Made by a program: the position numbers and the translations under genes. Shown here in pieces: positions 13,211 to 40,363 of a DNA stretch of 64,000 bases. Source of the DNA: Lingula anatina (lineage: Eukaryota > Animalia > Brachiopoda); contig CM120648.1 of assembly GCA_051362555.1 (NCBI GenBank), positions 4,770,587-4,834,586 of the forward strand, given 5' to 3'. How positions within the stretch are numbered: position 1 is the first letter of the stretch; each line of letters starts with the position of its first letter. A model generated the notes under the pieces. The model had not been told where the DNA came from, did not search any database, and saw nothing but the letters and a program-made list of their open reading frames with translations.

Positions 13211-14489
13211 TTAGTATTTGTAGGTCTTATACGGGTGATATGTATAATAACCTGTCGTATAGTACCGGTAATATGGTCTTCGCCACAGTTGCCATTTGTT
13301 AATCAAATAACCTATGTTTCTTCGCCGATGATCGAGAGTCTCACCATCGCTCAAATCTGGCTCTTCGTCTGGGATGTCATCTTCGTCGATTCGGTCGTCT
13401 TCAAATGTATTCGACTCTGCTCGCGTTAGACGGTTGAAGTACCTCGGATGTTGGTGAAGTTGGTTTAGTAGCGAGCCAATACCTCGTTTCTGAGCAGGGA
13501 ATCCATCATAATATGGCACAATAACTCTTGAGGGAAAATAAAAATCTTGGTACTGGTAGTAGTCCTCCAAGTCGCGTTTCCGTCTCGTTTTCGCAGCTTT
13601 CATTTGCTGGGCTTTATCGCTTGTTTCATTTTGATCGTCTATTGTTCTCTTGCCAGAGCTGTACCCTTTCCACCTGTTTATAAGCCGACCGATGTTCTTT
13701 TTATCAACGCCCGCCGTGTTCTGGTAGGCAACTGCAGGTACATATTCTGGGTATCCTCGCCAGTGGTTAATCACATGGCCGATGCTTTTCTTGTCTCCGT
13801 AAACGTCATCCTCACGTTTGTGACCGCCTCTCCACCGGTTGATTAACCTGCCGATGTTCTTCTTTTCTACAGACCCGTCAACCGCGTCGGTGTAGACTGC
13901 GTCATTTTCGTCGCGCTTGCCCCCTCCCCTCCACCTGTTAATCAGGCGACCTATATTTTTCTTATCTACTGACGCGCCAATGACATCAGCGTCGTCTGCT
14001 TCATCTTCGTCGCGTTTTCCGCTTCCCCTCCATCGATTTATCAACCGGCCAATATTCTTCTTTTCCACATCATCGCCATTTTCATGCGCACTGTCAGCTT
14101 CATCCTCGCGCTTGTGACCACGCCATCTATTGATAAGTCTACCGATGTTTTTCTTGTTCATGGAATCAGCCAGTTCTCCAGCATCGTCATAGTCGCGTTT
14201 ACCTCCGCCCCTCCATCTGTTTATCAGCCTTCCTATGTTCTTCTTGTCCATTTCTTCGTACAGGGACTGGTCGTTTTCCCCATCAAGTGAAATAGGAACG
14301 TTCGCATCAGCATAGTCTTCCTTTTTGGAGTTTGTTCCGCGCCATTTTTGTAGAAGCGCTCCAATATGGCGCTTGTCGTCCACGAGATCGTCTGCATGGT
14401 CGCTTTTCTTTCCTCTCCACTTGTTAAGAAGGGCGCCTATTGCGTGCTTTTTATGTGCCGGTGGTAGTTCGTGGTGCGTCTGATACCAT
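13211..14489 (-). CDS. Exon 3 (terminal) of multi-copy peptide precursor, ending ...YHPYKTYKY*
   Basis: Acceptor cttttacatgtatatcag|A completes the AG|A Arg codon and gives NIGALINR-W, restoring the motif across the junction. 1279 nt open to TAA at 13213-13211, with 11 further KK/KR/RRR-flanked motif copies. Total CDS 81+416+1279 = 1776 nt = 591 aa. Confidence 0.95.
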
Positions 14490-14825
14490 CTGATATACAT
14501 GTAAAAGAAGAGATAATATTTTAATCAAAGTAGTATTTGAGAAAGTTATAAACTATAAGGAAAATCCACATTATAGAGAGAACAAAAAATAAATGATATT
14601 CAGTTTCTCTTTACTGCCATGTATCAGCCTTCTGGGAACGCTAGTGACAGAAAAATCAGCTTCTAATGCTATACCGACAATTTTTTTATATTGCTAATGA
14701 GCACAAATGAGATGATAACGTGATCATTTACATGTAATTGTAGTCTTAGTGGCTTCTCACAAATATTGTAACACATTTAAATAATCTAGATATTTTCATG
14801 AATGGACGTTGGCCATTACAATTAC
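14490..14825 (-). other. Intron 2 (336 bp, phase 2) of the precursor gene
   Basis: GTAAT...tatcAG, AT-rich; splicing keeps the frame and the peptide motif. Confidence 0.92.
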
Positions 14826-15241
14826 CTGTTGATCAGAGCTCCAATATTTCTTTTTTGTTCGATAGCGTCTTCTCCGCTATCGTGGGCGTGTTCGCTTCTC
14901 TTTCCACCCCCTCTCCATTTATTCATCAGTGCTCCTATTCCGCGTTTTTCACCAACCTCCTCCTCTTCCGTGTTTCTGTCAGCGTCATCTCTTTTGTACC
15001 CCTTCCACCTGTTCAACAATCTACCAACGTTTCGTTTGTCGTCTTCTTGTTCGGATTCCCTGTGATCCTCTCTATGGAGTTCCATATCCCTGTGATCATT
15101 GCCTTCATCTTCTCGTTTCTTCCCGCGCCATTTGTTCAATAAGCGCCCAATGTTGCGTTTTTCTACGTCAGCTTTATTGATTTCGGTTGCGTCCTTTTCG
15201 TCAGGTGCTTGGACATTTTCTTCTTTGCTTGGTTCAGATAT
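14826..15241 (-). CDS. Exon 2 of multi-copy peptide precursor (ISEPSKEE...KRNIGALINR)
   Basis: Acceptor tctttacag|ATA, donor AACAG|gtaat (phase 2). Encodes KR-flanked NIGRLLNKWRG, NVGRLLNRWKGY, GIGALMNKWRGGG and the start of NIGALINR, with D/E-rich spacers. Confidence 0.93.
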
Positions 15242-18200: not shown

Positions 18201-19347
18201 AGTGCCCAAGCAGCATTCTATTGTGTTTTTAAGGTTGTCAATATAGAAAAGGGTGGAAATACAGAAATAAGTTATTGATCCGTGTAAACGATGCTTGTAG
18301 TGTTGTACATAAAGTAGTAAGAAAAATGAGAAAAATCATTTCGACAGGAATAAAAGTTTTTCATGGGCACTGCAATAAAAGTAGCAAAAACGAGTAAAAT
18401 GATTGACACGTTGTAAGGAATAAACACCAGCGCAAAGCGGAAACAATATACCATTGGGGTTATGACTTTGGAAGATAATTAAACTATTGACATTCTCAAA
18501 CCACGCTGCGCTTGGTGCTAATTAGATAATACCCATTATATCTCTCTGTTGGATAGTACTTTCCTAGTACTGCCATGAAGGAACGTTTTCAAATCACTCT
18601 GAGCTTTAAAATGATAAAGTATGTTGACTCAAATACTGTGCGTCCGCCAATCTACTAGTATGTAAGACCTATAGGTTTTATAATATGATCAGTGTAATCA
18701 TTTATTTCTCAAACCACGCTGGATTTAAAACTAATTAGCTAATAATAGAGTTGTCGAAGGTTGGTAAGACGAAAGGCATGTAGTGTTAGCGATTGACTCT
18801 ACATGGAAATGGACAAAGCCCAAGAGATAATCGTTTCACGTTTAGTTCTAGTAGTTTCTTAATATAGTTTTACGGGGTCGGATATGATTGAACACGAGAT
18901 AAGAACGGGGCCAAATGTAAGACATGAAATGTAAAAGTTCGATGGAAGGTCCTGCCAGAATGCTGCCAAGGTTTGCAGAGCTGAGCGTCTAACAAGGGAA
19001 TCGATCTTTGTAAAAGACGAAATTTGCACGGGGCGATGGGTTTCACGAGAACGTAATTCAAGAGGTGAATATCGAACATCGTTTATGTTTGAGCTTCCAG
19101 GAAATGATCACTTTAGGATTGACTAAATATTATTTGTTTTCTCATTCTATACGCTGTACCCCGAGTTCCGTTCCAACTGAAAGTATTCTAATCTTGTTTC
19201 TCTACGGTGGATGGTGGGGCACGAAACGAAGAGTACTAGTAGGCCTAGCTGTACCCAGTAGTTGGTTTTAAAGTTTAGGACAACTGGAACCCAGCGCAAT
19301 GTTTATCTGGCATCTACAGTGCAGTGTCTGGAGAAGGCTTATTAAAC

Positions 19348-19504
19348 TACTTACGCGAAATGAAAATAAGAACCGTGTCTGGTTTTTGTCAACTAATGTT
19401 TTCATACCTTATTACATTACTGGAATGGGCTTAAAGTACTTACACGAAATGAAAATAAGAACCATGTCTAGTTTTTGTCAACTTATGTTGTCACACCTTA
19501 TTAC
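19348..19504. repeat. Diverged tandem duplication, period 89 bp
   Basis: tacttac[g/a]cgaaatgaaaataagaacc[g/a]tgtct[g/a]gtttttgtcaact at 19348 and 19437. Confidence 0.8.
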
Positions 19505-22500
19505 TGTCGGGGAGTGGATCAAGCGTCTAGTATATTTGACTTGATTTATATTTGAGCATAATTATCCATCAGCAAATGTACAATGTATGTTTAAGTGTGC
19601 TGCAAGAACTGCTGCCAGAGCTGCTTTTGCTCTCAATTGCTGTGTCAATTTTATTCTTTGAGCAGTGATGGCCTCAAAATGATTACATGTGCATGTATAA
19701 CGATGTTAACATATATATCCACATGCCTAGTATAGTAAATTCTATACTCCTTCCACATTATTTTTGCATACAATATGCCCTGTAAACGTAAAAGGAACTC
19801 AGTATGGCCTAGACAATCAGCCGTACACATGTACATCCTGATTATGCTGTGCCCTTCGTGAATTCACCATCACGCTCTCTTGACAATCTAGGCTTGTCTC
19901 TTTCTCGGATTGTAATTTTCCAGGATGAAATGCCAAAAAGGCACCTAACTCGATCGTCTGGATGAGAAAACGTCGCCCTACATGTTGAACCTATTCAAAT
20001 GAGGAAGGAATTACATGTAACATAGACGTATTTATCGTGTTATATTTTGATGACGGGTATACATCATGATGTACCTGTAATAAAAGCTGTTACTAGTGTT
20101 AGGGTGCTTAATTGAAAATAAAGAGGAGCTGTTCTCAGAAGGTTACATGAACTTCAGTTGCTTCCACTGGCATTTATGTAGATATTGTTGTATCTTAATT
20201 CTTTATATACGCCAGTAAATTGTATATACATTGTAACTGCGAAATCCCGGGTTACATTATAACATATTACATGCAATTTACTTACATTGCGTTTAGAGTT
20301 ATTTGACAGAGCAACCTGAATGGAAAATGTGTTTACTTTGAGGAGTTTAATGACCTACATACATGTGTTTCTGTGCTTTACTGTGACAGCTGAGAATCAC
20401 TGTGTTTCTATCTTTTATGAATGTTGTATACAATTGGCCGTGTCACCATGAAAATGGCCGCAACCCAAGATGTTCGGTGATTGGTCTTGTATCTATATCT
20501 GCAGGACTAAATCACAATTTCATTTCTGGGATATTTATCTTGATCAATTACTGTTTTAAACGGACAATGAATTGAAAGAGTTGAATTGCACAACGCTTGT
20601 CCACCTTGCGGCTTAAAGTGATTCTCGCGCTGTTCCGCTACATTGATCGTTTATCCAATTAAACAATATGAGAATGTGCGTACTTTTAGCAGTTTCTGGT
20701 AAAGATGAATATCAAATTCTAAAATGCCATTTTCAGAACTATTACTCGTAAATGTCAAACCTAAATGCAACCCTTACCCTCATGAAAGGCAGCATTGGGT
20801 ATGTCAAAATGCTAACCGTCAAAGACTAAAGACCTCTTTTGAATTTTATACTTGTATGACAATTAACCTACGTTCACCGCGTAAAATTGAACTCCATTTT
20901 TATTTTTTAGAATTCTTATTTACTTCCTGAATGTCAGGTTTTTCCTAGAATTGTCATTAACTTTTTTTTGAATAATTGATGTGTACACCCTTTTTCATCA
21001 TACATGAACTTAAAGAGTATTTGATATTAGATATTGCAACAACAATGCCTTCTCCGATCTTTGAAACTGTTGTAAAACACGGAAAAGAACTAACTATAAA
21101 TACAGTTTCCTTTAGACAAATTTTAAATAAAATATTTCCGATTAAGAAACAAGTTATTTGGCGATTAAAGACATACATTAGTGACTGAAACATCTGAAGA
21201 CTTATTTAGTATTTCAGGCATGTTCATGTAGCATGCAAAGGAGTTGGTCCTGTATTAATTGAAGGATAAATTTATTCTCTTACTTAACCCAACTTGCGAA
21301 ATGGCATAGAACCTTGGTTAAAGAAACAAAAGAGACAGAAAAAAACTATTTCACCGTTTTTTCCTTATTATATGTTTAATAATTGTGGATTCCTGTTTTC
21401 ACTGATGCTATTCTGCAGATTTGCAAGTTACATCGAACGTTTTTCGCCTATCGAAAGTTCGTAACTACCCCATGGTTGGAACCAAATGTATGTTTAATAG
21501 ATCAAAACGATGTCACTCGCAGCGTTATTTGTTCGTAGGAGTAGTTAATCACAGCGGTTTCATTTCTTTGAACTTAATCAGCAAAGTAAATTCTACCGTG
21601 CAACATGCTCTTTAGTCATGTTTCCGCGAAAATCATTACGCTTTCTAAAAGAGAACAATAACTGCAGTCCAGATTAAATACTTTTATCTCGACCTCTGGT
21701 CATATGGCCCGCAGAGAACATTTTAATAAAAAGCGAATCATCTGTTGCCAGGAAAACAGCAATTGGTTTCATCACGATTTATCAGTGATTTTTGAGAACT
21801 GAGTCAGGTTAGTTTTTATCACGAGGAGTGTCCGTGTTTGAAAACAGCAAGTAGAGTTAGAGTTGCTTGCTTTCTCCACATGAGAAACTAAAATACGCCG
21901 CGGATGAATGTTATCGCAAAATATGGCCATCGAGTTTTGCCCCTCTATTCATTTTTTGCACTTGTGGATGTACGTGCTATATATGCTATGGCATAAAATA
22001 CGAGACCACATGCTATCTCTTTATATACAATCGAGCAAATGATTTAAAAAGGTAGCCATCTGCTCCCATTGGTGAAGTAATCGTTATCAAAGATTCAAAC
22101 GGCCTAGTGAGATGTGCTAGCGCAGCCATACTTCACTGAAAACGCCCTGTGCGTGACAGATGTTTATAAGTAGAACCTGTTACTTAATCCGTTCGTCTTT
22201 TTTCCGTGCTCTCAGACGTTGCGTCTTATTACTTCAAGATAAATAAGGAAATAGCAACGGCACGCTGATTGGTTTTGGGTGACATTTTAAAAGTTGATTA
22301 AGCTTTGATTACACGAAAACAGTGTTTGCCAAACACAATTTATCTGCTTCGTTCGTGATTCACATAAGGAAATACACAGGTGCACACGCTGATTGGATTC
22401 ATTTGAATGGCAGGAATCAGTAGTGGTACGAATTACTGATCTTTATTCACGTAATGAAAGCATTGTCTAGACGCAAAATCGTAGTCGGTCGCTTTTGATC

Positions 22501-24739
22501 AGTTTGGCTTGCGTGGTTGCGTGAGAAGCAATAAGAAACACTAGAGCGTGGAATTACTGGTAATTCTGCACAACAACTTGTCCAATAATGACACGTTTTT
22601 TCAAATGTCAGCTTATTCAATACCTTGGATATCAACAGGAGACGTAGTTCTTATTGACTGTAAATCCACTTAACATTAGTCTGGGCGTCGTATGTGCCTA
22701 AGAACTTTTTTCTCCTCATTATTTGTATAGAAATGACGCAGAATGCTGGCCCCCAAACCGGAGGTGGTCTTGTGATTATAAAGAGAACCACTGGCGTCAT
22801 CTTCTTTAGTTTTTCTTATGCAATTAAAAGAATTTATTTAAAAATATCTCCATTCCATTTTCCATTAAAACAGAATATACTTTTTGACATTTTCTAAAAT
22901 ATACCGTGTTGTTGAATATGTTGGGATGTGTGTTAATCCATAGCCATAGTTCGGTTGAGGCTGACGAGATATTTGCTTCAAATGAAATTTCGGCCAGCAA
23001 TGTTTATTTCAGATATAATAAATTAAGAAATAAGATGGGTTCATGTCTCATTTCCTTCTCACTAAGATACTTTGATTTTAATTCTGCTCAATTTTTTGCC
23101 ATTTTGACGTTTTTAATATGACCTTCCAGTGAAACAATGAATCTACCATGTATGCGCTGTTACTGCATGCATATACCAGTTGCAAATGCCACGAACCACT
23201 CACCAAAGTTCATGGCATTTTATTACTATTACTACGAAATGAGATATGTGAAAAAGCAGACTAAGTGTCACTAATATCAAAATTGTCCACATTTTGCAAA
23301 TCGATTGTTACTAAAAACTCAAGATTGATGCTGTTTATTGCTTAAAACGATGAATAATCGATACAATAGGGGCATTTTTCTACCAGTTTTGACGGGTAAA
23401 ATCAGAGTTCACGAGAGGTCGTTTTGGCTATAAATTCCGTATAAAATAGTCGGTTTTGAAGTGTATGTAGAAACACTGAGTGCGCCTTAATCTCGTCCAG
23501 AATGGAAAATTAATTGCATTCATTTTATTTGTATATATAGTAAAATATAAGAACGCAAATAATGATATTTTGGTAAATGATCCTTTAGCCGCCATCTTTG
23601 GGAATCACCTTTTGCGTTTCATCAAAATATCCACTTATGTAGGCATGGGATTTCGTGTAAGTTAACTACAAGTTTATGGATAAAGGGGTAGAATGCCATA
23701 AGATACGTACTATCTTGGTACATTTGCACAATAAACGAAGTGTTGTCGCACCTTTCGGTAAAACCCGGTTTGGGCGAAGTACATGTACGATTCAAAATAA
23801 ATTGGGGTTGTCTGTGTATCAATATAGATTAAAAACTTAAACAAAACTAACTCGACAGTCCCACTTTGTCAAATTTAAATTTAATTAAATTGTCAAAACT
23901 GTTAATAATAAGGTTTTTATTTTCACGAACACTAAATGTTCTTAAAAGCGGCATACATGTACATGTACAACAGGGTTGAAGAAAATAGTTTGTTCCCAAC
24001 TGATATGGTTGTATTGAGGAATTCATTTAACGTGTGACTGGCCTTCACTCACACATGCACGGTCTTCACAGGTTAACACGAATCAATGCTGCTGTCAGTT
24101 TTCATCAGGTTTGAAATATTACAAAGGAGAGCATAACATTGTTATGATCGACAATAAGTTCTAGTGTCTCTAATTTGTACGGAACCATAGTCGTTTTCGA
24201 CAATGTTGAATGGCCAATCGTTTTCTTTTTGACAGATAGGCAAACCTTGGGCAATAAATGATGTTGACGCACTTTGCGCTAACAATTACGCTCCCGTGCC
24301 ATTAACCTCGCCTGAACTTGTCTTCGTCGCGAATCATGGTGAATAAATTATATTTCTGATTTGACAATGATTAATTAAAATGAATAGCTCGAACACGTCC
24401 CACACCGCACCTTGCTTACTTGATTTATCTAGACTGCTGTGTTTTATGCTAGTATGAGGTAGAACACACATTTTGGTATCAGAGTCACGCTCAAGGTAAA
24501 CTGTTTTGTGAACCAGACAGCGTTGTGAGTTCTGCAAAGTGTTAATCATTGTTGTTCGTTGGACGAGGTAATCATACGTGAATATTTCACTTGATAGAGT
24601 GAGAGCACTCAGATTACATCTCTTGTAAAGGTCATCTTCCTCATGAGAATGACCAGTAAACCAAATTGTGCGTGTGCAGGGTTTTTTTTACGCTCGCGGT
24701 TTTTATTTTGATAACCTATTGATCTGTCTCATATAGCCT

Positions 24740-24741
<2 letters not shown>

Positions 24742-24787
<46 letters not shown>
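24742..24787. repeat. (TC)n microsatellite
   Basis: Visible directly. Confidence 0.95.
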
Positions 24788-24793
<6 letters not shown>

Positions 24794-26134
24794 AAACCAC
24801 TGTAGTGAAACATATGAAGGGTTCAATCCCTGTCCTTAGCTTAGTTCAAACCAAGTGAAATTTTAATATCATTTGGAAAGAAAGCAATTTAGTTATAATT
24901 CTGAAAAGTTAAGTCTAAGATGCATGCTGTTACTTTACAAACTTTTGAAACTTCAGTCGAGCTAGGTTATGTGCAATGAAAATGATGCCAAAATGAAATC
25001 AAGGTGCTTAATCGTGCAAACTGGTCTTTGAATGCTGAATTTGTAATAATGCATCACACAATGGCTAAACGGTACCCCAAGGATGGACCAGAAGTGTGTG
25101 CTTTTCTCAGAAAATGGCAACTTTTAGATGGCGTGCAGGGAGAGAGAGGCGCATTAATTCTCAATAAAGGAAACAATTGACACTGACTTCTTTAATTGCC
25201 GTCTGGAGATTGCAGTTATGCATGATATCATCTGTTTGCGTGGCATCCTACAGACAAATCAAGAAACCTTACAGATTGTAGACAGTCAAAAGCAAATTGA
25301 AAAATTCCCTGAGACGTCGCTAATTGAAATCCGCACTTCCTGTAACGCGCGACTTAATAACTCCATCGCACGCAAACATCGAGTTTGCGCGCGCGTTTTA
25401 ATTACCGCCTTTTCTCCGTATCCGTTGTGTGGGCATCCGCGTTGTTCGGCAACCACTGCAGGAGATATTCTTCTGCGAGGTTTAAGACACATTGCAAGAT
25501 TGCTTTGGGGAAGACAGTGCCATAAAACACGTTTATTTGAAATATTTCTATATCCCTGCAGAGGAAACAAAATTATTAAATGAAAACAGGATATTCAAGT
25601 GTATACTATAACGTACGTTTGTTGCCTCCAAACCATTTTCTCAGTCACTGGGGATATTATAAAGACAATTAACTGACACTTGTGATTTCCTGAACTTACG
25701 GGTTTTGCTGCAGACGAGGCAAAATGACGGTTTAGCAATAGAAACTCATTTGTGACCAATCTTTTAATCATGGCTATTTCCCTTTGTAATTACCTGTTCC
25801 AGGTCATTGTCTATCTCTCACTCTTCCAAACACCTGTTATATTTGGTCCAATAAACTGACAACGTCGCCCCCACAGCCACCCACTAAAACTAAAACACTA
25901 CAACTAAAAGTTAGATATCCATTTGGACAAACATCCCAAAGCAGGTCAATTGACATACTGGTACCTCGGGGTCCTTTTGTCTGAGGATCTTTTGTAATAG
26001 AGCTAAGACGTTCCTAATCTTGATTTCTGATGATGTATCTTTTCCATGGTACGAATGTTATTAAAAAAACTAAACCAGAATAGGTGGAACGGCCCACCAT
26101 AAAGAAAATTTGGATTGACTTTATCACACAAGTT

Positions 26135-26137
<3 letters not shown>

Positions 26138-26196
<59 letters not shown>
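26138..26196. repeat. (AT)n microsatellite
   Basis: Visible directly. Confidence 0.95.
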
Positions 26197-26199
<3 letters not shown>

Positions 26200-26560
26200 C
26201 TTTAGTACTTAGCGCTTTACATGATGTAATGCAGACCCGCAGCCTTTTTGGCTGGGAAAAGGTCGGCTCTGGGTTATCTTTGATCTAGTTTCATGGTAGA
26301 AGATCCACTTTTTCAGAAAAAGATCACCCCCTGTGAAATTGCTGGCTACGGGCCATACCGTACTATGTGACACTGAATGCAGGGGGGGGGGTACGTGTTC
26401 TGATACTAACCTACCGATTGGGTCGGAACTAATCACGCAGTTTGCACTCCCAAGGGGCTATGGAACCTTTTTATGGAAACTTTTTAGGTCAAACTATCCT
26501 CCGTTTAATTAACAAAGCTTCGATTAACTTTGTCGCACAAATTTAAAAATAATGCACTTA

Positions 26561-26817
26561 GGCTTCGTTCACATGCAATGTCTATTTTCTAAATTCTATT
26601 TTCTATTCGCGCTATCTTATGATCACGGTCTGTGCACTGAATGTCCCGCCGCGTAATTACTGGCAGCGCGAGCCAGTTACTTATAGTAACTTATAGTAAC
26701 TGGCTCGCGCTGCCAGTAATTACGCCGCGGGATATTCAGTGCACAGACCGTGATCATAAGACATGCCGCAAATAGAAAATAGAATTTAGAAAATAGACAT
26801 TGCATGTGAACGAAGCC
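26561..26817. mobile_element. Palindromic Tourist/Harbinger-like MITE, copy 1 (in intron 1)
   Basis: Almost fully self-complementary (GGCTTCGTTCACATGCAATG...CATTGCATGTGAACGAAGCC), TTA target-site duplication on both sides, near-identical second copy at 60640. Confidence 0.92.
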
Positions 26818-29800
26818 TTAGTAATTGCCCTTTACCAGGGTTGGGAAAGGTTAGTTTTCACTAGATATTCACATCTTTTACTTTGTAAATTGCCCATCAA
26901 GATTATTTTCCAAAAAAAGAAAAATAAAATAAGGGTAAAATTCCTGTCACCCAGCTGGCTTTTGGTAGAGAGAACTCGGTGATTGGCGCCTTTCAACCCG
27001 TAACAAGTTATTTGTGGCACGTGCTGCATGTGAGCGAACTGATATTGAACGTCTCCGATCAGCTTCAAACCGTTGACGCACGCCCAAACAACAATGGACC
27101 TTCATCTCTGTTTTATTGTGTGCGTTTTTGACTATGACGCGGCTTATCTGATAATCAGTTCAACTAATTCCTTAGCGCTCTGTGGGAAATCTCACATCAA
27201 TCGTTTTCTTGTATCAGATAAAGCGTGAGAGACACTGTTACTTGGTGTTTCTTTCATTTAATTGCCAGGAAAAAAGCAACCTATACGTATAATTTCCTCT
27301 GTGGTTTGGACCAAATGTTATCTAATAAATGACTTGGTATTTCCTTGTGTCTGGTTTGTGCCTACAAGACGTGCAGAGCTATCTCACCACGCAGGACTCT
27401 TTGAATTACTACGACAAACGAATTGTCTTTTCCAGTTAAGATAAAAGGCACAAGACTCCTACCCTCTACCAAGACCACGCTGCATGTGTACAGATATATT
27501 TATCATTCCATGAGCCTATCACTTGCTGTGCACATATCTTTTCTGTCCGGCTGGGGCTTTAGAGCAATGACTATATGTACATGTATAGCATCGCTGAACA
27601 GAATTCTGGAAGAAAGTTCAAATGTCCATGCCTGTGACCCTTTTGCTTGATTTTTTACATGGATCATGTTTATTGAAATATATGGAATGCAACTGCCTGT
27701 ATCCCGTTAGCTTTGTAACTATTTGGGAACTGGTTCTTGTAGCTTCTTTTCAATGCAATTTCAGTCATATACCTATATGACCTGGGGACATTATGCCTTT
27801 GTGGCCCTTCTGGCCCATTTTGGCGCACTAGTTTTCTTGTCGCACTGTCGTGTAAGTACTATTTGATATCTTGAGCAGCCCCGAGAAGAACTACCAATGG
27901 TAGCTAATGCAATTTTTAACAAATGAGATCGAATATGTTTCTGATGTTGCAGTTTATGTGAATTGGGTCGCCTTGTTTCAGTTCCTTTTGTTCTCTATTT
28001 TCATAATCATTATCATTTTATTACATGTTAAGAGGAGTTTGTAAATGGGAAAAAGTTAATATCATAAAAGAAAGATTGAGGTCCCACTGTTCACTTAGGA
28101 CCCGGATGTGCTTACATCTATCAATTGTTTGTGTCCTTACTTCAAAATGTTTGCAATTAATTAAGATTGACCAGTAAGAAATTTCGGCGAAGGGAAACAT
28201 TATCTAACATTATCCAAGCAATATATAAATTTTGCATCAGAGAAAGAGTGCTACACGGCAATTTTGATTAACCTGTCAACGTAATGAAAAGCACTGAAGT
28301 TGCTTGTTTAAGATTAACATTGTTTCGGTAGATGACGGTTTCTTCGTAGTTGAATGTACCCTCAGTACCTAACATCTTCTTGTAATCCGACTCTGGAATT
28401 ATTTGCAAAAAAAAAAAAAAAAAAAAAAAAAAACACGTAGAATCTCTGTGAGGGTTTGTAGTCATAGATAATCCGATACTGGTAAATGCCAGAACTATAG
28501 CATGACAGATATTACCAATTAGAATACATTGTACTTACGATCGCGTGTAATCAATTCTTTAGAACAGATGTGTGCAATCAATGCTAAGACCAAGGGAAAA
28601 AACGGCTGTAATTGGATTATCATGTTTTAGTCTGTAGAATATAGACAGGAGCATATAATTATAAATATACAAATAGCTGAAATAGGTAACATGGCTGACT
28701 GCATTCATGCCCTAATAAGAAGGGTTTAATAATGTAATTGGCAGACAGCAAAAAAAAAAAAAAAAAAAAACATGTGGCATTACCAGTTGCTCACTAAAAC
28801 TTTTTTTGTATTTTCGTCTGCCTTATTTCATCGAAAGTGTACCCTGTATTACAAAGAACTTACATGTGGTGAACACGTGCTGCCACATTCCTACAGTACA
28901 TGTAGCAAAGTAAACATTAATGTTGTATTTTGAAAGTCAGGGGGTCTTGGATTCATTCCTGAATTCGATTTCTTGTTTCATTTTTTATGCCTCAATCACT
29001 GAGCGTCTTTGTTACAATTGGTTTTCATTTCTCATTTAAGCAAAGCAAATCATATCCTTTTATTTGATATTAAAGCTATCAGTTACGGTCAATATTGCTT
29101 ACAAAAGATTCCATACCGAGTTGAGATCTCATATCATATATTCTTTATCTCCACTGAATACTCACATTAACAATATCTATTAACGCCTCCCTCATGACTT
29201 TTTCACACCGAATTACGAGTTTGTTGGAACAAAAGATGTTTAGAAGATTCTTGCATAGTCTATTTCCAGTTCCATCAATTTGGATTTTCCTTTTCAGGCG
29301 GTCGTGGCATGCAAAGTCGCTCAGGATATGGTATATTTGCCATGTTCCTTAAATCAACTCATTAATAAGGCGGCTTTGAGATGACAGTTTATTATCGCAA
29401 AAAGATTAGTGATGAGGAAATTTGTTTTTAAAAAGGAGACGGAAGTCGGTTGGACACGAACCAAAGCTCGGGTAATTGTGTTTAGTTAACGTTGACATTT
29501 TTCGTCCGTAACTTTATGACGTTTTGTCATTTATGAAATGTTATTTAACTACCGTTGGATCCCTGCGGTATGCAGTAAATTTCTGAATCCCCCGCTGTCC
29601 GCAAGCTTGTGTATAACTTTATTGATTGTTACATATGTTAGATCATTTACAACAACAAAAGGAATAATACATTGAACTGTATTTGATAAACACAATCCAT
29701 TATAAATTATATAGCTCCATAATATTGATAAAAACAAGTTATTATCTAAATTAATGTTACAATGGACTATATTACTAACTTTCCAAATAATTTTGCATCG

Positions 29801-30425
29801 TACTCAAATATCCGAAGAGTTTGGGCTCTGTAAATATTGCCACAAATAAACAACCCCGCGGACAAGGAAATGTGGTGTTACAAAATGAGACCTAGAACCA
29901 AGAATTTCATTTCTTTTTCTCATTTTCCGTTTGCGCACGGCCTATCAATCTTGTACAACAAGAACATAATATGGCATAAGTCAAATGTTATATACACATT
30001 ACACAACAGAAAAGCAAAAGCACTTAACCTAATTTTTAAATCACATAAGGCAAGCATTGCCAATTTCGTTTCCAATAAAAGTGGCCATTACGTTTGTAAA
30101 GCAGGTGATAATTCGTTCACTGCCCAATAACTGGCTTACACTGCCTTTCACGTATGTTCAATGATTTCCCTATATTCCTATATTCCCCTTGTTATTGCCA
30201 TTAATGTAATATGCCACTTCTCTTATGTTCATAAAATGGAAGAGTAATAAGGATGTTAGTCTATAGAATTTAATGCCAAAATGGAAACGGATGTTCTTTA
30301 GACAATGCGTAAAAAGGCAATTTACATGTAGCATGTCTTTCAAGTGGTTTCATTACCAGGGGAAATTTCGGTGTTAAGTTTTCATTTGAGGACGAAAACA
30401 GGCTTAGACCCATTCCCACAGACAG

Positions 30426-30657
30426 CATCAATCTACGTAAATCTATATATCCACCTTTGCAGGGATTTTGGCTGATTGCAATCGGCTCAACTGAATGGCA
30501 CGCTTCCTTTTGTTTATAATCAATAGCTTTTCTCTTTGTATAATCACCAGTTTTTCTGTATTCTACTCAACGCCCAGGAGGAGGCGTGCCATTCAGTCAA
30601 GCAGACTGCACTCAGCGAGAGTCCCCGCAGAGCTGAATCGATCTAAGTAGACCGATG
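30426..30657. mobile_element. Decayed fold-back element (old MITE) with ~80-bp imperfect inverted arms
   Basis: Left ...ggctgattgcaatcggctcaactgaatggcacgcttcc pairs with right ggaggcgtgccattcagtcaagcagactgcactcagc...; no clear TSD. Confidence 0.55.
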
Positions 30658-30825
30658 GTTTTTATATGAATGGGCCCTTACAAGTGGCCAGGCATAGTCT
30701 TAAAACAGCTGCAACGTACGCACGTCTCAAGAAAAGTGAATGAAAATATTTTAATTTTATTTGAATATTATACAAAAGTACATGTACATGTAGGGAGCAC
30801 GGAGAAGACGAGCCCACCAGCGAAG

Positions 30826-30860
<35 letters not shown>

Positions 30861-33800
30861 ACCGTTACAATATCCTGGTTCACCAGTGCAAGTAATAGCC
30901 TTTTATCGTGCAATATTCGATGCCAAAGGATCACATCCCTTGGGACACGACTTCCAGCATGACCGTGAACATTCCAGCCGCCGTGTGAACCTAAAATAGT
31001 TTAACTTGCCACTACTTGCCACCTTTTTTCATGGAGCACAAACGTTAATAAAAGCTCGATTCCCTGAAGTAATAAAGGCACATTATTGACCTGTGTTTTC
31101 GAAATAATCATACAAATGAACCCAACAATGCAGCAGTTAATCATTTGTCAGTGTTCAATGGGATTTAACTGCTTAACGTGAAAGATGACAGAGTGGTTTA
31201 AGTGAAAGTTCAAAACAAGGAAACTTAAAACTTCTTCTGAAATGGACTTAATTTGAACTGGTGACAGTCTCACTGACGTCTGCAGAAGACCAGATTGCAT
31301 GGTATTAGATAAGCCTATGGAAATGAAAGCCTACTGTATATTTGAGATATTTGGTATTTAGTAATTTCGTTTTTGACATTTTGCGGGGCTGAAGGGGCCA
31401 AGATTGTAAGCTTTTGTTTAAACCGGGTTAGATTTGGTTTATTAGTGAGTCCACGAGTTAACCACATGATATAAAGGGATACAGTATACTCAATATTGAC
31501 CATCATTCATAATAAAAAAAGTTGGTAAAATAAAATATATTCACAAGTTGAATGGAAAGCCATGACGACATTAACAGGGAAGAATTAAATTTTTCACTTC
31601 AACTACATCTCGCTGCGTTGATTGCAATAACCTGTTGTTGATACACATCCATCATTCATGTTCAGCGTTCTGTAGATTTTTATCTCATCGATACATAAGA
31701 TAAATTGGTGTGGCAACATTTTTATTGTTGTGACTTCTATTATAGATATCAATAGTAACGAAGTATGCTTAGAAGATAAATAACCTACACATTCCGAGTT
31801 AGATGTTTTATCGTAATTTCGAATAGTATAAACGTTCGAATAGTATAAATATGCATTTTGGTCTTTTTAGTAAGTATAAATTTGCATTAATAGCATTCAC
31901 AGACAACAGTAGTGTACATCTAATGGCCGACATCTGCCAAAAATTCTCCCAGGGGTAAATATCAAGTCATCAAAAAAAACCATTCTAGAATACATGTATG
32001 AAAATCATTGAAACGCACGTTTTGTGTGCCCATTTCGTTAACACCCATTAATTTGTGCCTGCTTAAAATCATAAAATTAATCAACATTAGTGTTCTGTAT
32101 GTTGAATCCAAGGCCATTAGGTAATAGAAGCATGCTGCAAATAGCATGCCCATGGCTGGTTCTGAATATATGCCAATATTCGACATTAAGGAAAGTCTCT
32201 AGGCATCTTTGCCATCCATCATACGCTATTGCCTCCGGGGAGAGTAAGGCTAGGGACACAGTAATCGCGAGACTCGTTGCTGCTACTACCCCCCAAAAAA
32301 CCCTTAATGTAGATATATGCTACAAAATGTAATTATACCAGAAAACTCGAAAAAGACATTTCAATGACGGTGGCGGCGGTTAGAATCTGAACACCCTACC
32401 CTCACGTCATTTCGTGATTTCCAAGGGCATTATCACCAATGCTGAAAATCGGTTTTTATTTTTTGCTCATGACGACCAGGAAACATTGCATGAAGCCATA
32501 AAAGATTCCATCTGAAGGTTTCAGTCCAATTTGGTCTGGTTTGAACCAGCCACTTCAGCTAAAAATGTGGTAATCGGTTATATCTAAGCTTTCGCCAATT
32601 TTGAACCGATTACAAACTCAAATGTACTTGTAGCAAAGGCCACTTTTCAGAACTGAGTGGTGACCTAATTGGCATATGCCGAATTTCAAGGAACAATGAG
32701 CTTCTCATAGTGGCCAACGGAACTGTTATCACTGTCTTTAAGTTAGTCTTTCAAAATCCATTTACGGCGGTTCCCAAGAGTAAAGCCCTTTCCTTGCACC
32801 AGAGGTGCGGTGCCAGAGGCGCTTCTCTAAAATCTAATTAGCCATCTTAAAAGAGTTTCTAATGACATTATAGTAGAAAGTCAATGGTAAAACAACAGTT
32901 CTCTGCAATACAAATGTGATGCACGTGTTTTTTTTTTTTTTTTTTTTGGGGGGGGGGTACATTTTTAAGGAAATAAAGTCAAAGTCTTATAAACGCTGTT
33001 AATTGTTATTTTGAATTCTCCCTATGATATTTGAATATGGATAAACGGGATTCCTTGAAAATATGGCCATCACTTGTCAAAATGGAAAACAGTGTACAAA
33101 TTAAATGTTACTGATACTTGTATAGCCTGAGTCATTATTGACAAGCGTACGCGTAGACATTGAAGCAGTGGATAATGTACGAAAACACTGTATTCGTGTT
33201 CTAAAACAACAGAAAATTATTTTAATACCAAGAGGTTCTATATTAGTGGGAAGGAAAACAGACAATTATCAATGAATACGAAATCAGTCGAATACCTATC
33301 TCAAACAAATGCCACCATGCCGCCGATCCCGTTTTTTCAATTCCCAAGCTTTGATAAATGCCAAATTGACAATTATGTTCAAAGATAAGTCTGAGCACGT
33401 TCTGATGTAACGGCACCGTGGCGTGATTCCAAAGACAGACTGCGAATTACAAGTAATGATTATATACTTAAACAGTCAACAAGTGCGTGCCTTTCTATCT
33501 AGAAGGTACTTACATTAATGCATTGATCCCTTTATGGGTTTACAATTAACGATGGCAATTGTCTTGTTTTGAACGCGTGATATTAACCAAAGGGAAGACA
33601 TAAATTTTTAGTGGAGTAGTTGTGTTTACACGAGAACTATCCGTTTTGTACTCAGAAAAATGACCTAAAAAGCGTTTTAAACTCATACTCACAAATTGTT
33701 TGATACATTATGTGTGGTTACCGCAGTCAAACATAGTCCTTTTGTTTTTATATTTCTGGTTTGTTGTTTTCTTCTTTCTCTCTTTTCATTTCTTACTTCT

Positions 33801-34842
33801 CTTAAGATATGAACTGTTATGAATGCCGAGTATCAGTGAGAGGCGTGATGGACCCGAAATACGTAATAAAACATATATATATCGGTTAATATTCTCAAAA
33901 TCTAATTTCCTTTCCTTTAGTTGTGTGGTGTTTATGAAATAACCAGACCACGTTTCTCATTTCGAACATTTGTATGTTATCAAATCATCACAGCAACGTG
34001 TCTTATTTTTCTGTAAATCATTTTGATATCGCCAGCCTCCGCATCTTTTTTCATCAGAGTTTTTTCATCAACAATTAATAAGATTTGCCAGGGTACCACG
34101 CTCCTGACACTCCCACACGGCCTTTACCGTGAGCTGTTCAAGACACTTCATTAGCGGAGCTTTGTAACTTCATTAATTCACGGCTCACATTTTCTCGTTC
34201 AAGTGATTACCTAAAATCATTTCTTTTCATTTCCCCTCAAAGGGCACGCAGCTCCCAATAAAGACAACTGAGTTGATCTGTCCAACTCAATCACGTTGTT
34301 GTGAGCGACAGGAAGACAGGACAAAGTTGAATGAAAGTTGGACCTTTGTGTTTTTTTTTTTGTTTGTTTTTGTTTTTGTTTTTGTTTTTTGTTTTTTTTT
34401 TTTTTGAAAATTAATACGGCTTGAAGACGGCCAAATGACGGCTAGGACATCGTATTCTTAAGAAGCTGTCTGTTAATTTCTTGATGCAATTGTTATCCAC
34501 TTGTGATATTTCTGTCAATATTCGGTGTTTGTCTTCAATTACCAGAGTTGAATGCAGTGACATGGCGGATCCAGCAGAGGGGAGGGGGGCGAGGATGAAA
34601 TAATTTTGCCGCCAAAAACGATGTAAATACTCACAAGTAGTTTGCAACCGACGTGCTTGTCACAGGCGAGCCCTGTCTCCACTGAAAAATAGCGTATTTT
34701 TCACCAAGCAATATTTATCACATAACATAGCAAAAGCGTGTATCTTACGCTTATTATTACACTTGTTTTGAAGGGGAATAAATACATGTATGAAACAGCA
34801 CAGTAAACGCTCACATATTAACTGTATGCAGTGTATGTAGGA

Positions 34843-34949
34843 CACAGAAAACACATAACGTTATTATAACGTTACCATAACGTTAATTTTACCAAAAAAC
34901 GTTATCACCACGTTATGGTAACGTTATAAAACGTTCTGTGTTTGCTGGG
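34843..34949. mobile_element. Short AACGTT-repeat fold-back remnant ending TGTTTGCTGGG (MITE-like)
   Basis: Repeated AACGTT palindromes arranged symmetrically (ataacgttaccataacg / cgttatggtaacgttat). The right end reads CCCAGCAAACAC on the minus strand; the left end is degenerate. Confidence 0.5.
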
Positions 34950-37900
34950 CTGTTATTTTTGAGGGAGAACGTAGGATAGGAGAGCACGTACCCGCTATGC
35001 CTGCTGTGACTGTCCTTGGATCTGTAAATGCAGACCCCACTTGCTCTATACTTGCTCTGTACATGTCCCAGAGGTCATCTGGGTGATGACGTCATTCTTA
35101 TTCAAAATTACTCGCTCACATTACAGAAAGATGCAGAGAAATATCTGTGAATATCTAGTGAAAATAATATCGCTGTGGCCCCTGGTAGAGGATAGCCTTA
35201 TGCAGGGTTTTACAACATGATGAGGGCACGAAAACAATTTTGCTTTCTTCAATCTGACATTTAATTTTGACTGTTGATTTTCTGATCGATAATAATTGAA
35301 ATATGCACGAGATATCGCGCAGAAATATAATCACAGCGCAGATTCCTATGAGCTTTCTGTCAATCTCTTTTAAGTGGCGTTTCCAGTCCACGGCTGACCG
35401 CTTAATATTAGAACGTTTTAGCGCAACTTAAAGTATGTGTGATAACGTTGTTCGTAGGAAGTCAGTTTTATGACATCGGATTGTGGGTATTAGATGTACT
35501 CATATGGTAAGAAATCGTGGTCTGTCTGCCGGCGTTAGGAAACTGAGAGTCTGTGAAACAGAAAGTCCGCCCTCCATTTAGTAACAATGGTTAGGGTTAG
35601 CTTAACATAAATCAAAATCTAGGGCAAGGCTTACCTGTACAAAGGAATGGGAAGCGGACTCTCTTTTTGGGGCATTCTCTGTAACGTTACATGGGAATAG
35701 TAGGTGCTAGATTCTGTTGTCAAAAATTATTCGCATTAAGTAATGGACTCTAAGAATTGAATCAGCCCAGGAGAGTTTACATTTTTAAGTCTCTCTTACA
35801 ACGTAGACTGCACTGGAATCTGGGTCCTTTCATTCTGTACGCCATTAGTCGTATAAACTGACCAGCGGTCGGCGTATACTGGTGACCAATTCCCAACATA
35901 TACTTATGGTGGATTGCTGCTTGGCTTGCTATCATCTGATCATCGCATTCGTCGGAGAACGTTAGCAACTGAACGCGTGAAAAGTGCACTCCTCTTACCT
36001 GACGAGGTTATGAATTTATTGGCGTGACCGAAGGCAACCAACACAAGGGAACAAAACACTATGAATTATTAAAGTACATTGCCACTTTTCAGCAAAGAAT
36101 CCGCCAGGATGAGACATGTTTATATTTGTGATTTTTGACACGGTTCGATTATTTGCGTGCGATAAATACAATAAATAACGCAGTGACACGCTATCGGTCA
36201 ATATTGACATCGTTCCCTAGACTTTGGTATGGCGACCCTTGACCAAACAAGATTGCTCTGCCCGCCAGGTAACTGGACTGTAGGCTGAGGCAGTGCTTGG
36301 GGAGGAGGGGGGCACTTGGCTGCAAGCCTACAATGCATGTAAGCAGGTTATTTGTACCGCCTGTGGCACCCAGCAAGACGCTGAAGGAAAAATGAGCGTC
36401 TTCTTATGGACTAGGGGAAAGCAAAACTTTAAAAAGATAACAAAAATATTTTCAATAAGAATAGTATCTGGGGAGGAAGCGAACAGCCTTGTCTGCCAAA
36501 CCCGGAAATAGCTTTCACGATTTTCGTCAAAGTTTTAATACTTTGAAAGAAATATGTGAAAGTTATTTGAAAAACCTGAATCGCGCTTTACAACTTAATA
36601 CCTTTTAGAATTTGCCGTTAAGTGCATGTTTACACCACTGCTCTAATTTTTTACGTCAAGGTCTGGCAGGTTATATTGTGGGTCATGTTTTATTCAGTAG
36701 ACCATAAATGTTACCTTACTAGGTTATGAACTGCTTGCTTTGTGATCCAATAATCGCTGAAAACATTCAATCACTCCCAGGCATCACGCTTCTCGTTCAT
36801 ATCTTCTGGTGCTTTCACAACGATCTAAACAAATTGATGAGACCCTTTCATCAAGGAAACATCAATATGGGGATAAAGAGCTCCTTGTCAACAGAAAGAT
36901 GTGCAATTTATGCCACTTGTGGTGGATATAAATCCTTTTCAGTGCTGCCTCGGGCGCGCTTTGATGATAAATGTGAGTTCAAACGGCGCAAAGAGGGTGT
37001 CTGCATTGATGAGACGCAATTTCAGTTTTCGAAACCGGTTTCTTTGCAATAGAAGGCATAAAGAGCTGATATTTTGACAACACAAAGATGAGTTAACAGG
37101 TTTCAGTGCTACTTTTAGCAACTTTCAGAATGATGAAATGATTTATCGAATCCCCATTAATGCCCTTTATCTGACAGTTACGTCAGAGTAATTGTTCGGT
37201 CTCAAGAATAATTCGCGATTAAGCTGTGCAGAAGATGGCGTAACGTCTTGACTCTGATATCCAATTTCCTTTTGAATTTTTCTAAGAACCAACCAAAATG
37301 TTGTCCAGTAATGTTCAAGTACAGAACGAGTTTGCACCCTGGATAATTATGACTTTAACCGACACCGGTCAAACAAAACAAACCTAATACAAATCACAAC
37401 ATTTAAGATAACGCTAACGTTCCTGACAGTGTTATCAACACATACATATATAGTTTTAGCATTGGTTCATGTGGAATCAGACTGACAAAAATTAGTATCA
37501 AGCTAAGCATTTCTCTGTCAGTAAGTCGTACATGAATCAATGTAGTATCAGACGACATAAACTCTAAACCTCGTTGTTCTTGGTTTCCCCAGTCTAAGTA
37601 CTTATCTGTAGGATGGAAGTGGCATATATCGACCGAAAGATAACGACAGATTAAGGGAATAGCGATAGACGGATTTCTTCGCCAATCAAAACGACCTTGG
37701 AGCAACGTTAGATTATTTTGGATTAAATGAAATCCACTTTGTTCCTGGCACGTAATAGATTCTGGATATTCATTTGTACTGCTCACTGCATGCTTGTGTG
37801 TTACTGTGATGTTTTCCAAGTAAATCGGCTGAATTTTTGTCACAATAATAAGTTGACTTTTGATGCTGGTGTGCAAATTATTGTTTTATGATCAGCTTCT

Positions 37901-39618
37901 TCAAATAATTGCTATCGAACTGACATGCAGAGGTCTAAATTTGCAAGAAAAGGTACTTGTAAGTTGAGTTCACTGTTAACCCTGACATTTTATCTCTTGT
38001 ACACATAGTACGCTTAAAAATAATATGTGAACCGGGTAACTACGTATTTTGGTCTTCTTCCCAAATGTGCCCATGAAATATACATGTAGCATAGGTGCTG
38101 AGCGTACTTTTGCCCCAATTCCGCGTATTTAAGTGTGCGCCAATGAACTCAAAGCACTTCAGACTTGGGAGTTCAACATGTACACCATCTGAGGAGATTT
38201 CGGTGGGCTAGATGACCAAGATCGATCTCATTCGACCAAAATGTGTATTTTTGGTAAAGAGTTAGGATATGTTATATTGACATTGGGCAGGAAGAGATAG
38301 AAATTAAAAAAAAAACAAAAACAAAAAAAAGAAGGCAGGATTTAAAACCTCTGCCTTCTTGAATTTAAATACAACCGTTATCTTATCCCAGTCTCCCTGT
38401 TGTTAGATTTAATTTAACGGGAAGAAATAGTAAAACGTTATTGATTTAGATTTATTATTATATAAGGTATGGTTTTGAATTGAGGATGATGCATGAATTT
38501 CTTTATTGCTGTCGAAGTTACTGATGGTAATTCAATAATTCCATCTTTGTAACACAACACAAGCTGCGCGATCTTAAATTCTACGGAGATTTGAAGCGAT
38601 TTGAGGTAATTTATTGTCGCACTCCTTCATTTCCTGCAATTGCGTACAGCTAGTACATGTACAAGATAGCGCTTTAATTGCAGTGTAGTAAAGAACGGAA
38701 CAGCTTTCACTGGGACATCTTGGAAATTTAATTGATTTCGCCTTGTTGTTATCAAGAAAAGATTCTGCGAAATATCTGTAAGGCTATCAGCTTGATGGAC
38801 GGCTCATGCCTCATCACACTGCCCGTGTATTATCTGATAACAAGGAAATATGACTTAATTTACTGCATCGATGCGGGAAGGACATTGTCAAAACACTACC
38901 ATCCGTCTTTTCTTGTGCAAGGCATGCTAAATCATATTCATAATCTAATGCGATTTTTCCACAAGGGAAAGAACTTTTTCACCAGAAATTATTGCTTAAT
39001 TACTGTGTCGATACACTGACGACGGTCAATTTTTTAATTCTGTATGTATATTCCAAGACGCTAGGCATACTAAAGTATATTCCATTATTCTTCAAAACAA
39101 ATATTCAGCGATGGAAGAAATGGGAGGGAAATTAATACAAAAATTGCCTAATTACGGCGATGGTATAAATAGTCCGCTGTCTCTTTGTTAATATGAGCTA
39201 ATTCTAGTCCAATGCATACAAAATTATATAAATATTTTGTAATTTAAGACCAATTTTCCCAAAAGTGTGTCTAAATAGTCCACTGGTTCGTAGTTCGGAT
39301 ACCCTTTATATGCTTTTTAGGGGCATTTTGTTATATCTTTACTATGTGCTATGTTTTCCTGCACTGTTTTCAAACGGTTTGGATATATTTAAACATAACA
39401 GTTCCTTTGCGTGCTGATTGAGATATGCCTTTTAATGGACGCGTGTGTCAGTTTTAATACAGTTCACCTTATATTGAAAGCATTTTTATTTTCATTATTA
39501 TTTCAGGCTAAGAGGGTGAAAGATTCTAAGTTATAAGTGCAATCCCATGAAGTGTCTCTTTGAATGTCTAAATAAAATTCATTTCAACAAAATTAAAATG
39601 AAGACACCAATCTCTCAC

Positions 39619-39699
39619 CTTTTCATTGGCAGTGCTCTCTTGACAGGCGACAGTGACCGCCATTAGAAGCAGGACCATTCCCGCTTGATGTAGTTTCAT
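39619..39699 (-). CDS. Exon 1 of secreted multi-copy peptide precursor: signal peptide MKLHQAGMVLLLMAVTVACQESTA-NEK
   Basis: ATG at 39699-39697 has A at -3 (acaagATG) and an in-frame TAG 13 codons upstream. Basic n-region, hydrophobic core VLLLMAVTVA, small residues S-T-A before the likely cleavage site. Ends at canonical donor AAG|GTGAGA in phase 0, matching the phase-0 acceptor at 15241. The link across 24 kb is inferred. Confidence 0.8.
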
Positions 39700-40210
39700 C
39701 TTGTAGTCGATCGTTGTCGCAGTTTTCGATGAAGTCTATTTTTCGACTCTCACTTCGGTACAATATTAAGTCGAGAATTCGGTTTGTCTTGTTGTTGCTT
39801 CAAATCTGAATTCAGTACCGTTTCTGTTTGCAATGGTCTTTCTTTGTTTCGTCGGCGTTTTTCTATAGAATGGCGGCAGTGGTTTTCCTTTGCCTTCGAT
39901 GCCTTCTCGAGTACGCCTCGTCAATGGAATTGTCTTTCTTGTTCACTCGCTGTTTACAATTGACTAAATGAATTCACACATTTCAGTCGCGATTATTATT
40001 TCCAGCAGATTATGCGGCTCAACCAGAGAGAGAAAGAGAGGGAGATATACTCGGGAGGCTCGAAAGGGTGGATACCAAAAACCAGAAGAAACGAAAAGGA
40101 CGACACAGCATTTTGAGAGCTCGTAAGGGATAAACCCATTATATGATTAGGATACTATACACACGGGTGTTTCTTTGACGGTGCTCTAAAGTACCGATTG
40201 GTCGGAACAG
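39700..40210 (-). promoter_or_regulatory. Putative 5'UTR and proximal promoter of the precursor gene
   Basis: Immediately upstream of the signal-peptide ATG. Inr-like TTAGTC on the minus strand near 39962-39967 and a minus-strand CCAAT near 40197-40201. TSS is not determinable from sequence. Confidence 0.35.
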
Positions 40211-40363
40211 ATCAATAAAAGAGACGAACAATCAATCTCGAACACTATTTTATTGCCAGGATTATCAAATAATGTGGATTAAAGAGGTTTGCAAGGGAGG
40301 GCATCCAAGTAGGGGCTACTAGTAACGTAAAAGAATAAACGTTAAACTTATGACAAATAACCT

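What the first reader, a model, noticed from the sequence alone, without database searches (positions are those of the whole stretch)
39619..39699. Hidden 81-nt signal-peptide exon 24.4 kb upstream of the peptide array
The two ORF-track proteins lack a signal peptide and start at intronic Mets. This mini-exon (MKLHQAGMVLLLMAVTVACQESTANEK) has an upstream in-frame stop, A at -3, a consensus AAG|GTGAGA donor and the phase required by the 15241 acceptor. Automatic annotation could split or truncate the gene and miss that it is secreted. The join is inferred.
Basis: partly seen in the sequence, partly recalled or inferred. Interest (0 to 1): 0.7.

Follow-up and report, generated by a model that had tools for sequence, protein, structure and literature searches.

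The report
Signal-peptide exon of HIGA-like neuropeptide gene
A short expressed exon with a predicted secretion signal lies 24 kb upstream of an array of 15 similar peptides and likely splices onto it to make an animal neuropeptide precursor; the gene layout is ordinary, and only the peptide sequences appear to be undescribed.

Summary
The exon is real. In 3 of 4 poly(A) RNA runs laid on it, reads cover 39619 to about 40019, and depth is zero in all 17 bins on the intron side, so the donor is used. It is the only signal-peptide-like ATG-to-phase-0-donor exon in 48.8 kb; 1 of 40 simulated sequences gave one. Two corrections: 81 nt is only the coding part of an exon of at least 400 nt, and the join to 15241 was not seen directly (it exceeds the 20 kb a lay can hold, and the loose-end list was crowded out by a transposon). 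The downstream intron 14825-14490 is shown by 5 spliced reads. The inferred product is a 591-residue precursor with 15 dibasic-flanked peptides (core NIGRLINRW), 7 ending in glycine. Its motif resembles annelid and nemertean HIGA peptides, but database searches found only one unnamed relative (P0001). A remote signal-peptide exon missed by gene predictors has a direct precedent: the starfish SALMFamide gene, 18,144-base intron (PMC3594158). Verdict: correct, useful annotation; ordinary architecture; a new, divergent member of a known kind.

The parts
39619..39699 (-). Coding part of exon 1: start codon, predicted signal peptide (likely cut after Ala18 or Cys19) and 8-9 further residues; phase-0 donor follows at 39618
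   Evidence: Sequence; only hydrophobic stretch of the precursor, 10-residue mean 2.89 against 0.87 elsewhere; RNA depth 3.8-9.5x in 3 of 4 runs, zero beyond the donor
39700..40019 (-). 5' UTR part of the same exon (minimum extent); holds the in-frame stop 39738-39736 and one 5-codon upstream ORF starting at 39981
   Evidence: Continuous read depth in X7, X8, X9 up to about 40019; the tool masks 40020-40050 as a repeat, and no depth lies beyond it until 40339; uORF
15242..39618 (-). Intron 1, 24,377 nt, GT..AG, phase 0 (join inferred)
   Evidence: Both ends read as splice sites; no RNA depth in the parts tested, 15244-19300 and 38259-39618; 19301-38258 not tested
14826..15241 (-). Exon 2, 416 nt: acidic spacer and the first four peptide copies
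   Evidence: low read depth in X7
14490..14825 (-). Intron 2, 336 nt, GT..AG, phase 2
   Evidence: 5 spliced reads from 3 start places in X7, ends CT..AC on the + strand
13211..14489 (-). Coding part of exon 3: eleven further peptide copies, a furin-type RRKR site, Tyr-rich tail and stop; 3' UTR follows (candidate AATAAA at 11848)
   Evidence: reads in X4, X5, X7, those of X4 and X5 all in the one orientation expected for a minus-strand RNA in a usual stranded library

Best explanation
The stretch 39699-39619 is the coding end of an expressed first coding exon that is likely spliced across a 24,377-nt intron to 15241, giving a predicted 591-residue secreted neuropeptide precursor of HIGA-like type. 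Shown: the exon is in poly(A) RNA, its donor is used, and exon 2 is spliced to exon 3. Inferred: the 39619-15241 join; entry into the ER by the signal peptide; cutting at the KR/KK/RR pairs by prohormone convertases and trimming by carboxypeptidase E; amidation of the 7 of 15 copies that end in Gly; release from neurons and action on a receptor that is not identified.
For: Sharp RNA boundary: 23 of 23 reads listed at 39635 (10 X7, 3 X8, 10 X9), 16 nt from the donor, and no depth in 39539-39618. X7 covers both exon 1 (about 8x at 88% likeness) and exons 2-3 (up to about 6x at 95%); the two runs of study P1 tested show neither (X1: 0 reads on exons 2-3; X2: 0 on exon 1). Phase 0 fits and gives one open frame of 591 aa. 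Only signal-peptide-like candidate in 48.8 kb. Of 62 YAG acceptors in intron 1 scoring at least as well as 15241, none opens 100 or more codons in phase 0, while 15241 opens 139. The diverged allele in X7-X9 has 8 listed substitutions in the 81 nt, no stop, no listed indel in the coding part, and keeps the hydrophobic core (10-residue mean 3.47). The one relative, P0001 (E 2.8e-25), is a single 710-aa chain with a hydrophobic N-terminus, related repeats and a similar late basic site followed by DL. Platynereis HIGA has a signal peptide and MS-confirmed peptides cut at KR (PMC3890597 supplements).
Against: No read or contig showing 39619 joined to 15241 was displayed: one search listed no loose ends at 15241 (depth 0.58x in that bin) and hid 172 loose-end rows behind a transposon. 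19 kb of the intron (19301-38258) was never laid, so a small internal exon is not excluded; 5 of the 62 good acceptors open 50-89 codons. A weaker in-frame acceptor at 15259 would add six residues. Exon 1 variants show no clear excess of silent changes (3 of 7 changed codons silent). The X7-X9 reads differ from the window by roughly 5-10%, so they come from another population or a sister species under the same label. The signal peptide was scored by a hydropathy rule, not SignalP. No peptide, tissue or receptor data exist here.
Confidence: 0.88

Rival explanations
1. Same gene and same signal peptide, but with one or more small exons inside the 24 kb intron, or use of the in-frame acceptor at 15259, so the direct 39619-15241 join is not the main form.
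For: 19301-38258 not covered by RNA lays; 5 well-scoring phase-0 acceptors with 50-89 open codons, and a YAG at 15259.
Against: No peptide-motif copy lies anywhere outside exons 2-3 in six frames; P0001 reaches its first peptide at residue 58 and the direct join gives residue 57, so no length is missing; 15259 has the weaker pyrimidine tract (score 12 against 17).
Confidence: 0.08
2. The exon belongs to a different secreted-protein gene, and the peptide array takes its signal peptide from an exon beyond the window or starts at the Met at 15274.
For: The join was not observed; runs were shared between the two lays only for X7.
Against: No other coding exon is evident between 39618 and 15242 (longest phase-0 frames after a YAG, 141 and 113 codons near 37800, look non-coding); no depth in 15244-15470 where the Met-15274 start would need it, though depth there is too low to prove much; co-expression in X7.
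Confidence: 0.04
3. On family only: the precursor is not a HIGA orthologue but a separate multi-copy family that converged on, or is more distantly related through, an x-I-G-x-x-x-N start (as insect NPLP1 also has a conserved N-terminal consensus).
For: HMMER over 1.84 billion representatives returned only P0001, no named HIGA; a profile of P0001 plus exon 3 returned only P0001. Only 2 of 15 copies start with His; HIGA precursors seen place their Tyr/Pro-rich atypical part near the N-terminus, this one at the C-terminus.
Against: Position-by-position motif match with HIGA copies seen in the supplements (HIGAAMNW in Platynereis; NIGAARNWG, NLGSAMRWKGG, HLGRARNW in nemerteans), and P0001 bridges the two (HVGAAINRW, HIGAVLNKW).
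Confidence: 0.35

Closest known systems
HIGA proneuropeptide of Platynereis dumerilii (GenBank KF515947 as given in PMC3890597 supplement) and nemertean HIGA precursors (PMC8557429 supplement)
   Same: Signal peptide, many copies of a peptide that starts right after a dibasic site with x-[IL]-G-small-hydrophobic-hydrophobic-[NR], variable C-termini, acidic spacers, some copies with C-terminal Gly.
   Different: Here the first residue is mostly Asn, position 4 is often Arg and the core ends in N-[RK]-W-[RK]-G; no significant sequence match to a named HIGA was obtained; the atypical Tyr-rich region is C-terminal.
P0001 (unnamed 710-aa protein from a Logan contig)
   Same: Only significant relative: E 1.8e-24 to 2.8e-25, 29-36% identity, hydrophobic N-terminus, about 19 motif copies, first copy at residue 58, late basic site followed by DL.
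   Different: Cores are G[IV]GS[AL]INRY and HVGAA[IL]NR; organism and gene structure unknown.
Patiria miniata L-type SALMFamide gene (PMC3594158), as an architectural precedent only
   Same: Short signal-peptide exon far upstream (18,144-base intron) of the peptide-coding exon; GenScan and Augustus missed it.
   Different: Unrelated peptides; two coding exons rather than three.
Insect neuropeptide-like precursor 1 (NPLP1); crustacean HIGSLYRamide (the latter name and the motif likeness are recalled, not tested)
   Same: Multi-copy precursor whose paracopies share an N-terminal consensus and vary at the C-terminus (PMC4237046 passage).

Membership tests
Multi-copy neuropeptide precursor (general kind) | N-terminal signal peptide | tested here: met
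   Hydropathy rule and -1/-3 sites met; exon expressed; depends on the inferred join; SignalP not available
Multi-copy neuropeptide precursor (general kind) | Repeated similar peptides flanked by dibasic cleavage sites, with acidic spacers | tested here: met
   15 copies, each directly after a basic pair
Multi-copy neuropeptide precursor (general kind) | Spliced, polyadenylated transcript | tested here: met
   Reads on exons only; intron 2 shown by 5 reads; donor 1 shown by sharp boundary
Multi-copy neuropeptide precursor (general kind) | Peptides actually processed and released from neurons | not testable with these tools
   Needs mass spectrometry and in situ hybridisation; tissues of the runs are not given
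HIGA proneuropeptides | Repeated N-terminal motif H-[IL]-G-[AS]-[AL]-[ML] after KR | tested here: inconclusive
   Positions 2, 3, 5, 6 fit in all 15 copies by eye; His start in only 2 of 15; one copy begins HIGALL
HIGA proneuropeptides | Significant sequence similarity or clustering with named HIGA precursors | tested here: inconclusive
   Searches returned no named HIGA; whether such proteins are among the representatives searched is not known, and repeats with diverged spacers score poorly
HIGA proneuropeptides | Shared intron positions or synteny with annelid and nemertean HIGA genes | not testable with these tools
   No animal genomes held
HIGA proneuropeptides | Host is a spiralian in which HIGA is known (annelid, nemertean) | not testable with these tools
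   Organism name is coded; no other gene was identified in the window
NPLP1 / HIGSLYRamide | NPLP1 N-terminal consensus and orthology | not tested
   Only a text passage was seen; the alignment figure is not held

The most novel reading that the evidence does not exclude
This gene and P0001 define an undescribed N/G-I-G-x-L-I-N-R-W branch of the orphan HIGA family, possibly from an animal group where HIGA has not been reported, and form a sequence bridge between spiralian HIGA and arthropod NPLP1/HIGSLYRamide, making these one old peptide family whose receptor could then be sought among receptor guanylyl cyclases.
Probability: 0.15. Interest if true: 0.55.

Novelty: new member of a known kind. 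Interest (0 to 1): 0.25.

Why it matters
Practically, the exon turns two apparently signal-less ORFs into one likely secreted prohormone, so the gene model should include it. Biologically, HIGA-type peptides are known from few species, and I found no receptor or function for them in the passages read; a divergent, uniform, strongly basic copy set (7 of 15 copies share the core NIGRLINRW) gives a clean synthetic ligand for receptor screens. The remote signal-peptide exon itself is a known layout and changes no general view.

Tried and rejected
No genome was held for this window, so paralogues and annotation could not be checked. No RNA holder was listed by the word index; the 9 runs came by species label only, and 7 of 9 were laid (X3, X6 not). 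The junction could not be put in one lay (24.4 kb against a 20 kb limit), and loose ends at 39619 were not among the 24 rows shown of 196. Exon 2 alone found no relative among 17 candidates. Pfam gave no family above its cut-off for 4 of 4 proteins. The ESM Atlas gave only generic multi-copy neuropeptide clusters below 0.9 (tachykinin, allatostatin and others): a sign of precursor-like character, not of family. Rfam: 0 matches in 64 kb. A six-frame Pfam scan for neighbouring genes was not obtained, so the organism's group stays open. Full-text search for six peptide cores found 0 papers; motif searches in supplements of mollusc (two files cut when stored), ophiuroid, sea cucumber and xenacoelomorph papers showed no such precursor among the passages returned; supplements not held or not searched (files 2 and 4-7 of PMC3890597, all bioRxiv supplements) may hold one. 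Earlier scan notes: none by place or sequence, one unrelated springtail precursor by words. Rejected: chance ORF; starts at Met 14500 (intronic); RNA editing for the read differences (they are near-fixed across reads and of all kinds, so a diverged population is the simpler reading).

Full report
Observation. The minus strand from 39699 to 39619 reads an ATG and 26 further codons, then GTGAGA; A sits at -3. An in-frame stop lies 13 codons upstream, at 39738-39736. The acceptor ends at 15242 and the next base, 15241, starts a codon, so the phases fit. The two long ORFs of the region (15397-14822 and 14524-13211) have first Mets at 15274 and 14500 and no hydrophobic N-terminus.

Is it more than chance? 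I listed every ATG that runs 15-70 open codons into a phase-0 GT with a fair donor score in the 48.8 kb upstream of 15241. There are 6 such pairs on 4 donors. Only the 39619 donor has a hydrophobic core (10-residue Kyte-Doolittle mean 2.89; next best 1.25). Of 40 simulated sequences of the same length and 4-mer make-up, 1 passed my strict filter and 0 reached the observed scores. The filter and donor matrix are my own and were set with the exon in view, so this is supporting, not independent, evidence.

RNA evidence. Nine raw-read RNA runs came by species label; 7 were laid. On 12520-19300, X1 gave 0 reads, X4 10, X7 20 and X5 2. All depth lay at or below 15243, none in 15244-19300, and 5 X7 reads from 3 start places skip 14490-14825 with GT..AG ends on the minus strand. 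On 38259-40658, X7, X8 and X9 show 7.9x, 3.8x and 9.5x in the bin 39619-39698 and continuous depth up to about 40019; X2 shows none; all 17 bins from 38259 to 39618 are zero in all 4 runs. 23 reads are listed at 39635, 16 nt from the donor, and none continues past it. So the exon is transcribed and the donor is used. The exon is at least 400 nt, not 81: it carries a 5' UTR with one 5-codon upstream ORF at 39981. Its 5' end is open, because the tool masks the CT tract at 40020-40050; a start in that tract or a further non-coding exon are both possible.

What was not shown. The partner of the 39619 donor. The intron is longer than one lay can hold; no loose ends were listed at 15241, where depth was 0.58x at 95% likeness; and the loose-end table showed 24 rows, all from a transposon-like element near 40362-40533, with 172 hidden. 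The join therefore rests on phase, on co-expression in X7, on the lack of a rival signal exon, and on the lack of a rival downstream exon: of 62 acceptors in the intron that score as well as 15241, none opens 100 codons in phase 0, against 139 for 15241, though 5 open 50-89. A weaker in-frame acceptor at 15259 would add six residues. The first peptide falls at residue 57 with the direct join and at residue 58 in the relative P0001, which argues against a missing exon.

Allelic data. X7-X9 differ from the window by roughly 5-10%. In the 81 coding bases 8 substitutions are listed (7 codons: 3 silent, V9G, A14V, T16I, S22N), with no stop and no listed indel; the one indel listed in the exon is in the UTR at 39846 (156 substitution rows and 5 indel rows were not shown). 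The hydrophobic core is kept (mean 3.47). In exons 2-3, 6 of 13 listed changes are silent against 20% of all possible single changes. This fits a coding gene, but for exon 1 alone it is no clear signal of selection.

The product and how it likely works. The three exons give one open frame of 591 residues. Residues 8-19 are the only hydrophobic stretch (best elsewhere 0.87), with -1/-3 sites after Ala18 or Cys19; a second in-frame ATG at 39678 would keep the core. There follow 15 copies of a peptide that starts directly after a basic pair, consensus [NHGS]-[IV]-G-x-[LV]-[ILM]-N-[RK]-W, 7 of them with the identical core NIGRLINRW and 7 ending in Gly, separated by acidic spacers. By established prohormone biology, the signal peptide would send the chain into the ER, convertases would cut at the basic pairs, carboxypeptidase E would trim, and PAM would amidate the Gly-ended copies. 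These steps, neuronal expression and the receptor are inferred, not shown.

Relatives. Searches of the 5.8-billion collection (only the roughly 8000 best candidates were scored in 6 and 40) and of 1.84 billion representatives returned one protein, the unnamed P0001, a 710-aa chain with a hydrophobic N-terminus and related repeats. Pfam gave nothing above cut-off; the ESM Atlas gave only generic neuropeptide precursor clusters under 0.9. By eye the motif matches HIGA: Platynereis copies begin HIGAAM or HLGAAM, some continuing NW, and four were found by mass spectrometry (PMC3890597, passages and supplements); nemertean copies include NIGAARNWG and NLGSAMRWKGG (PMC8557429, passages and part of the supplement). 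P0001 has HVGAAINRW and HIGAVLNKW and so bridges the two. It is built like HIGA; membership is about 60-65% likely and not proven, since no named HIGA scored and only 2 of 15 copies start with His. A likeness to insect NPLP1 and crustacean HIGSLYRamide is recalled; only a passage on an NPLP1 N-terminal consensus was read (PMC4237046).

Novelty. The layout is known: in Patiria miniata the L-type SALMFamide signal-peptide exon lies 18,144 bases upstream of the peptide exon and was missed by GenScan and Augustus (PMC3594158, passages). The peptide cores were not found in the full text of the library (6 terms, 0 papers) nor in the supplement passages returned; papers and supplements outside this library may describe them. 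The organism is coded and no neighbouring gene was identified, so whether this extends the range of HIGA is open.

Verdict. Observation confirmed, interpretation supported, join still inferred (about 0.88). New member of a known kind; interest 0.25.

Noticed in passing
window 40364-40543: Short element with 37-nt imperfect terminal inverted repeats, about 350 nt upstream of the mapped exon 1. Hundreds of diverged poly(A) reads pile on it in all 4 runs, so it is likely a high-copy MITE carried in many transcripts; single copy in this window.
   Followed up: partly
window 26556-26822 and 60634-60904: Two copies, 96-98% alike, of a roughly 270-nt near-perfect palindrome (129-nt arms, 13-nt loop in the second copy), probably a young foldback or MITE element; the first lies inside intron 1.
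   Followed up: no
window 14964-14896: Two X7 reads go back from 14964 to 14896 with 12 other letters between (table 5c), which may be an allele with a short duplication inside exon 2, that is, peptide or spacer copy variation.
   Followed up: no
runs X7-X9 on 39619-39910 and 13498-14855: Near-fixed differences of roughly 5-10% from the window under the same species label, while X4 and X5 reads are mostly 99% alike: a very polymorphic species or a cryptic sister species.
   Followed up: partly
window 39964-39981 (-): One 5-codon upstream ORF in the 5' UTR, in frame with the main ATG but closed by a stop.
   Followed up: no
window 13211-13300 (-): The precursor ends in an unusual Tyr-rich tail of about 20 residues after an RR pair; role unknown.
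   Followed up: no
window 12520-12746 and 11848 (-): X4 reads reach and run over 12520, and the nearest AATAAA is at 11848, suggesting a 3' UTR of about 1.4 kb.
   Followed up: partly
window 1555-1950: Tandem duplication of a 195-nt unit, 96% alike.
   Followed up: no
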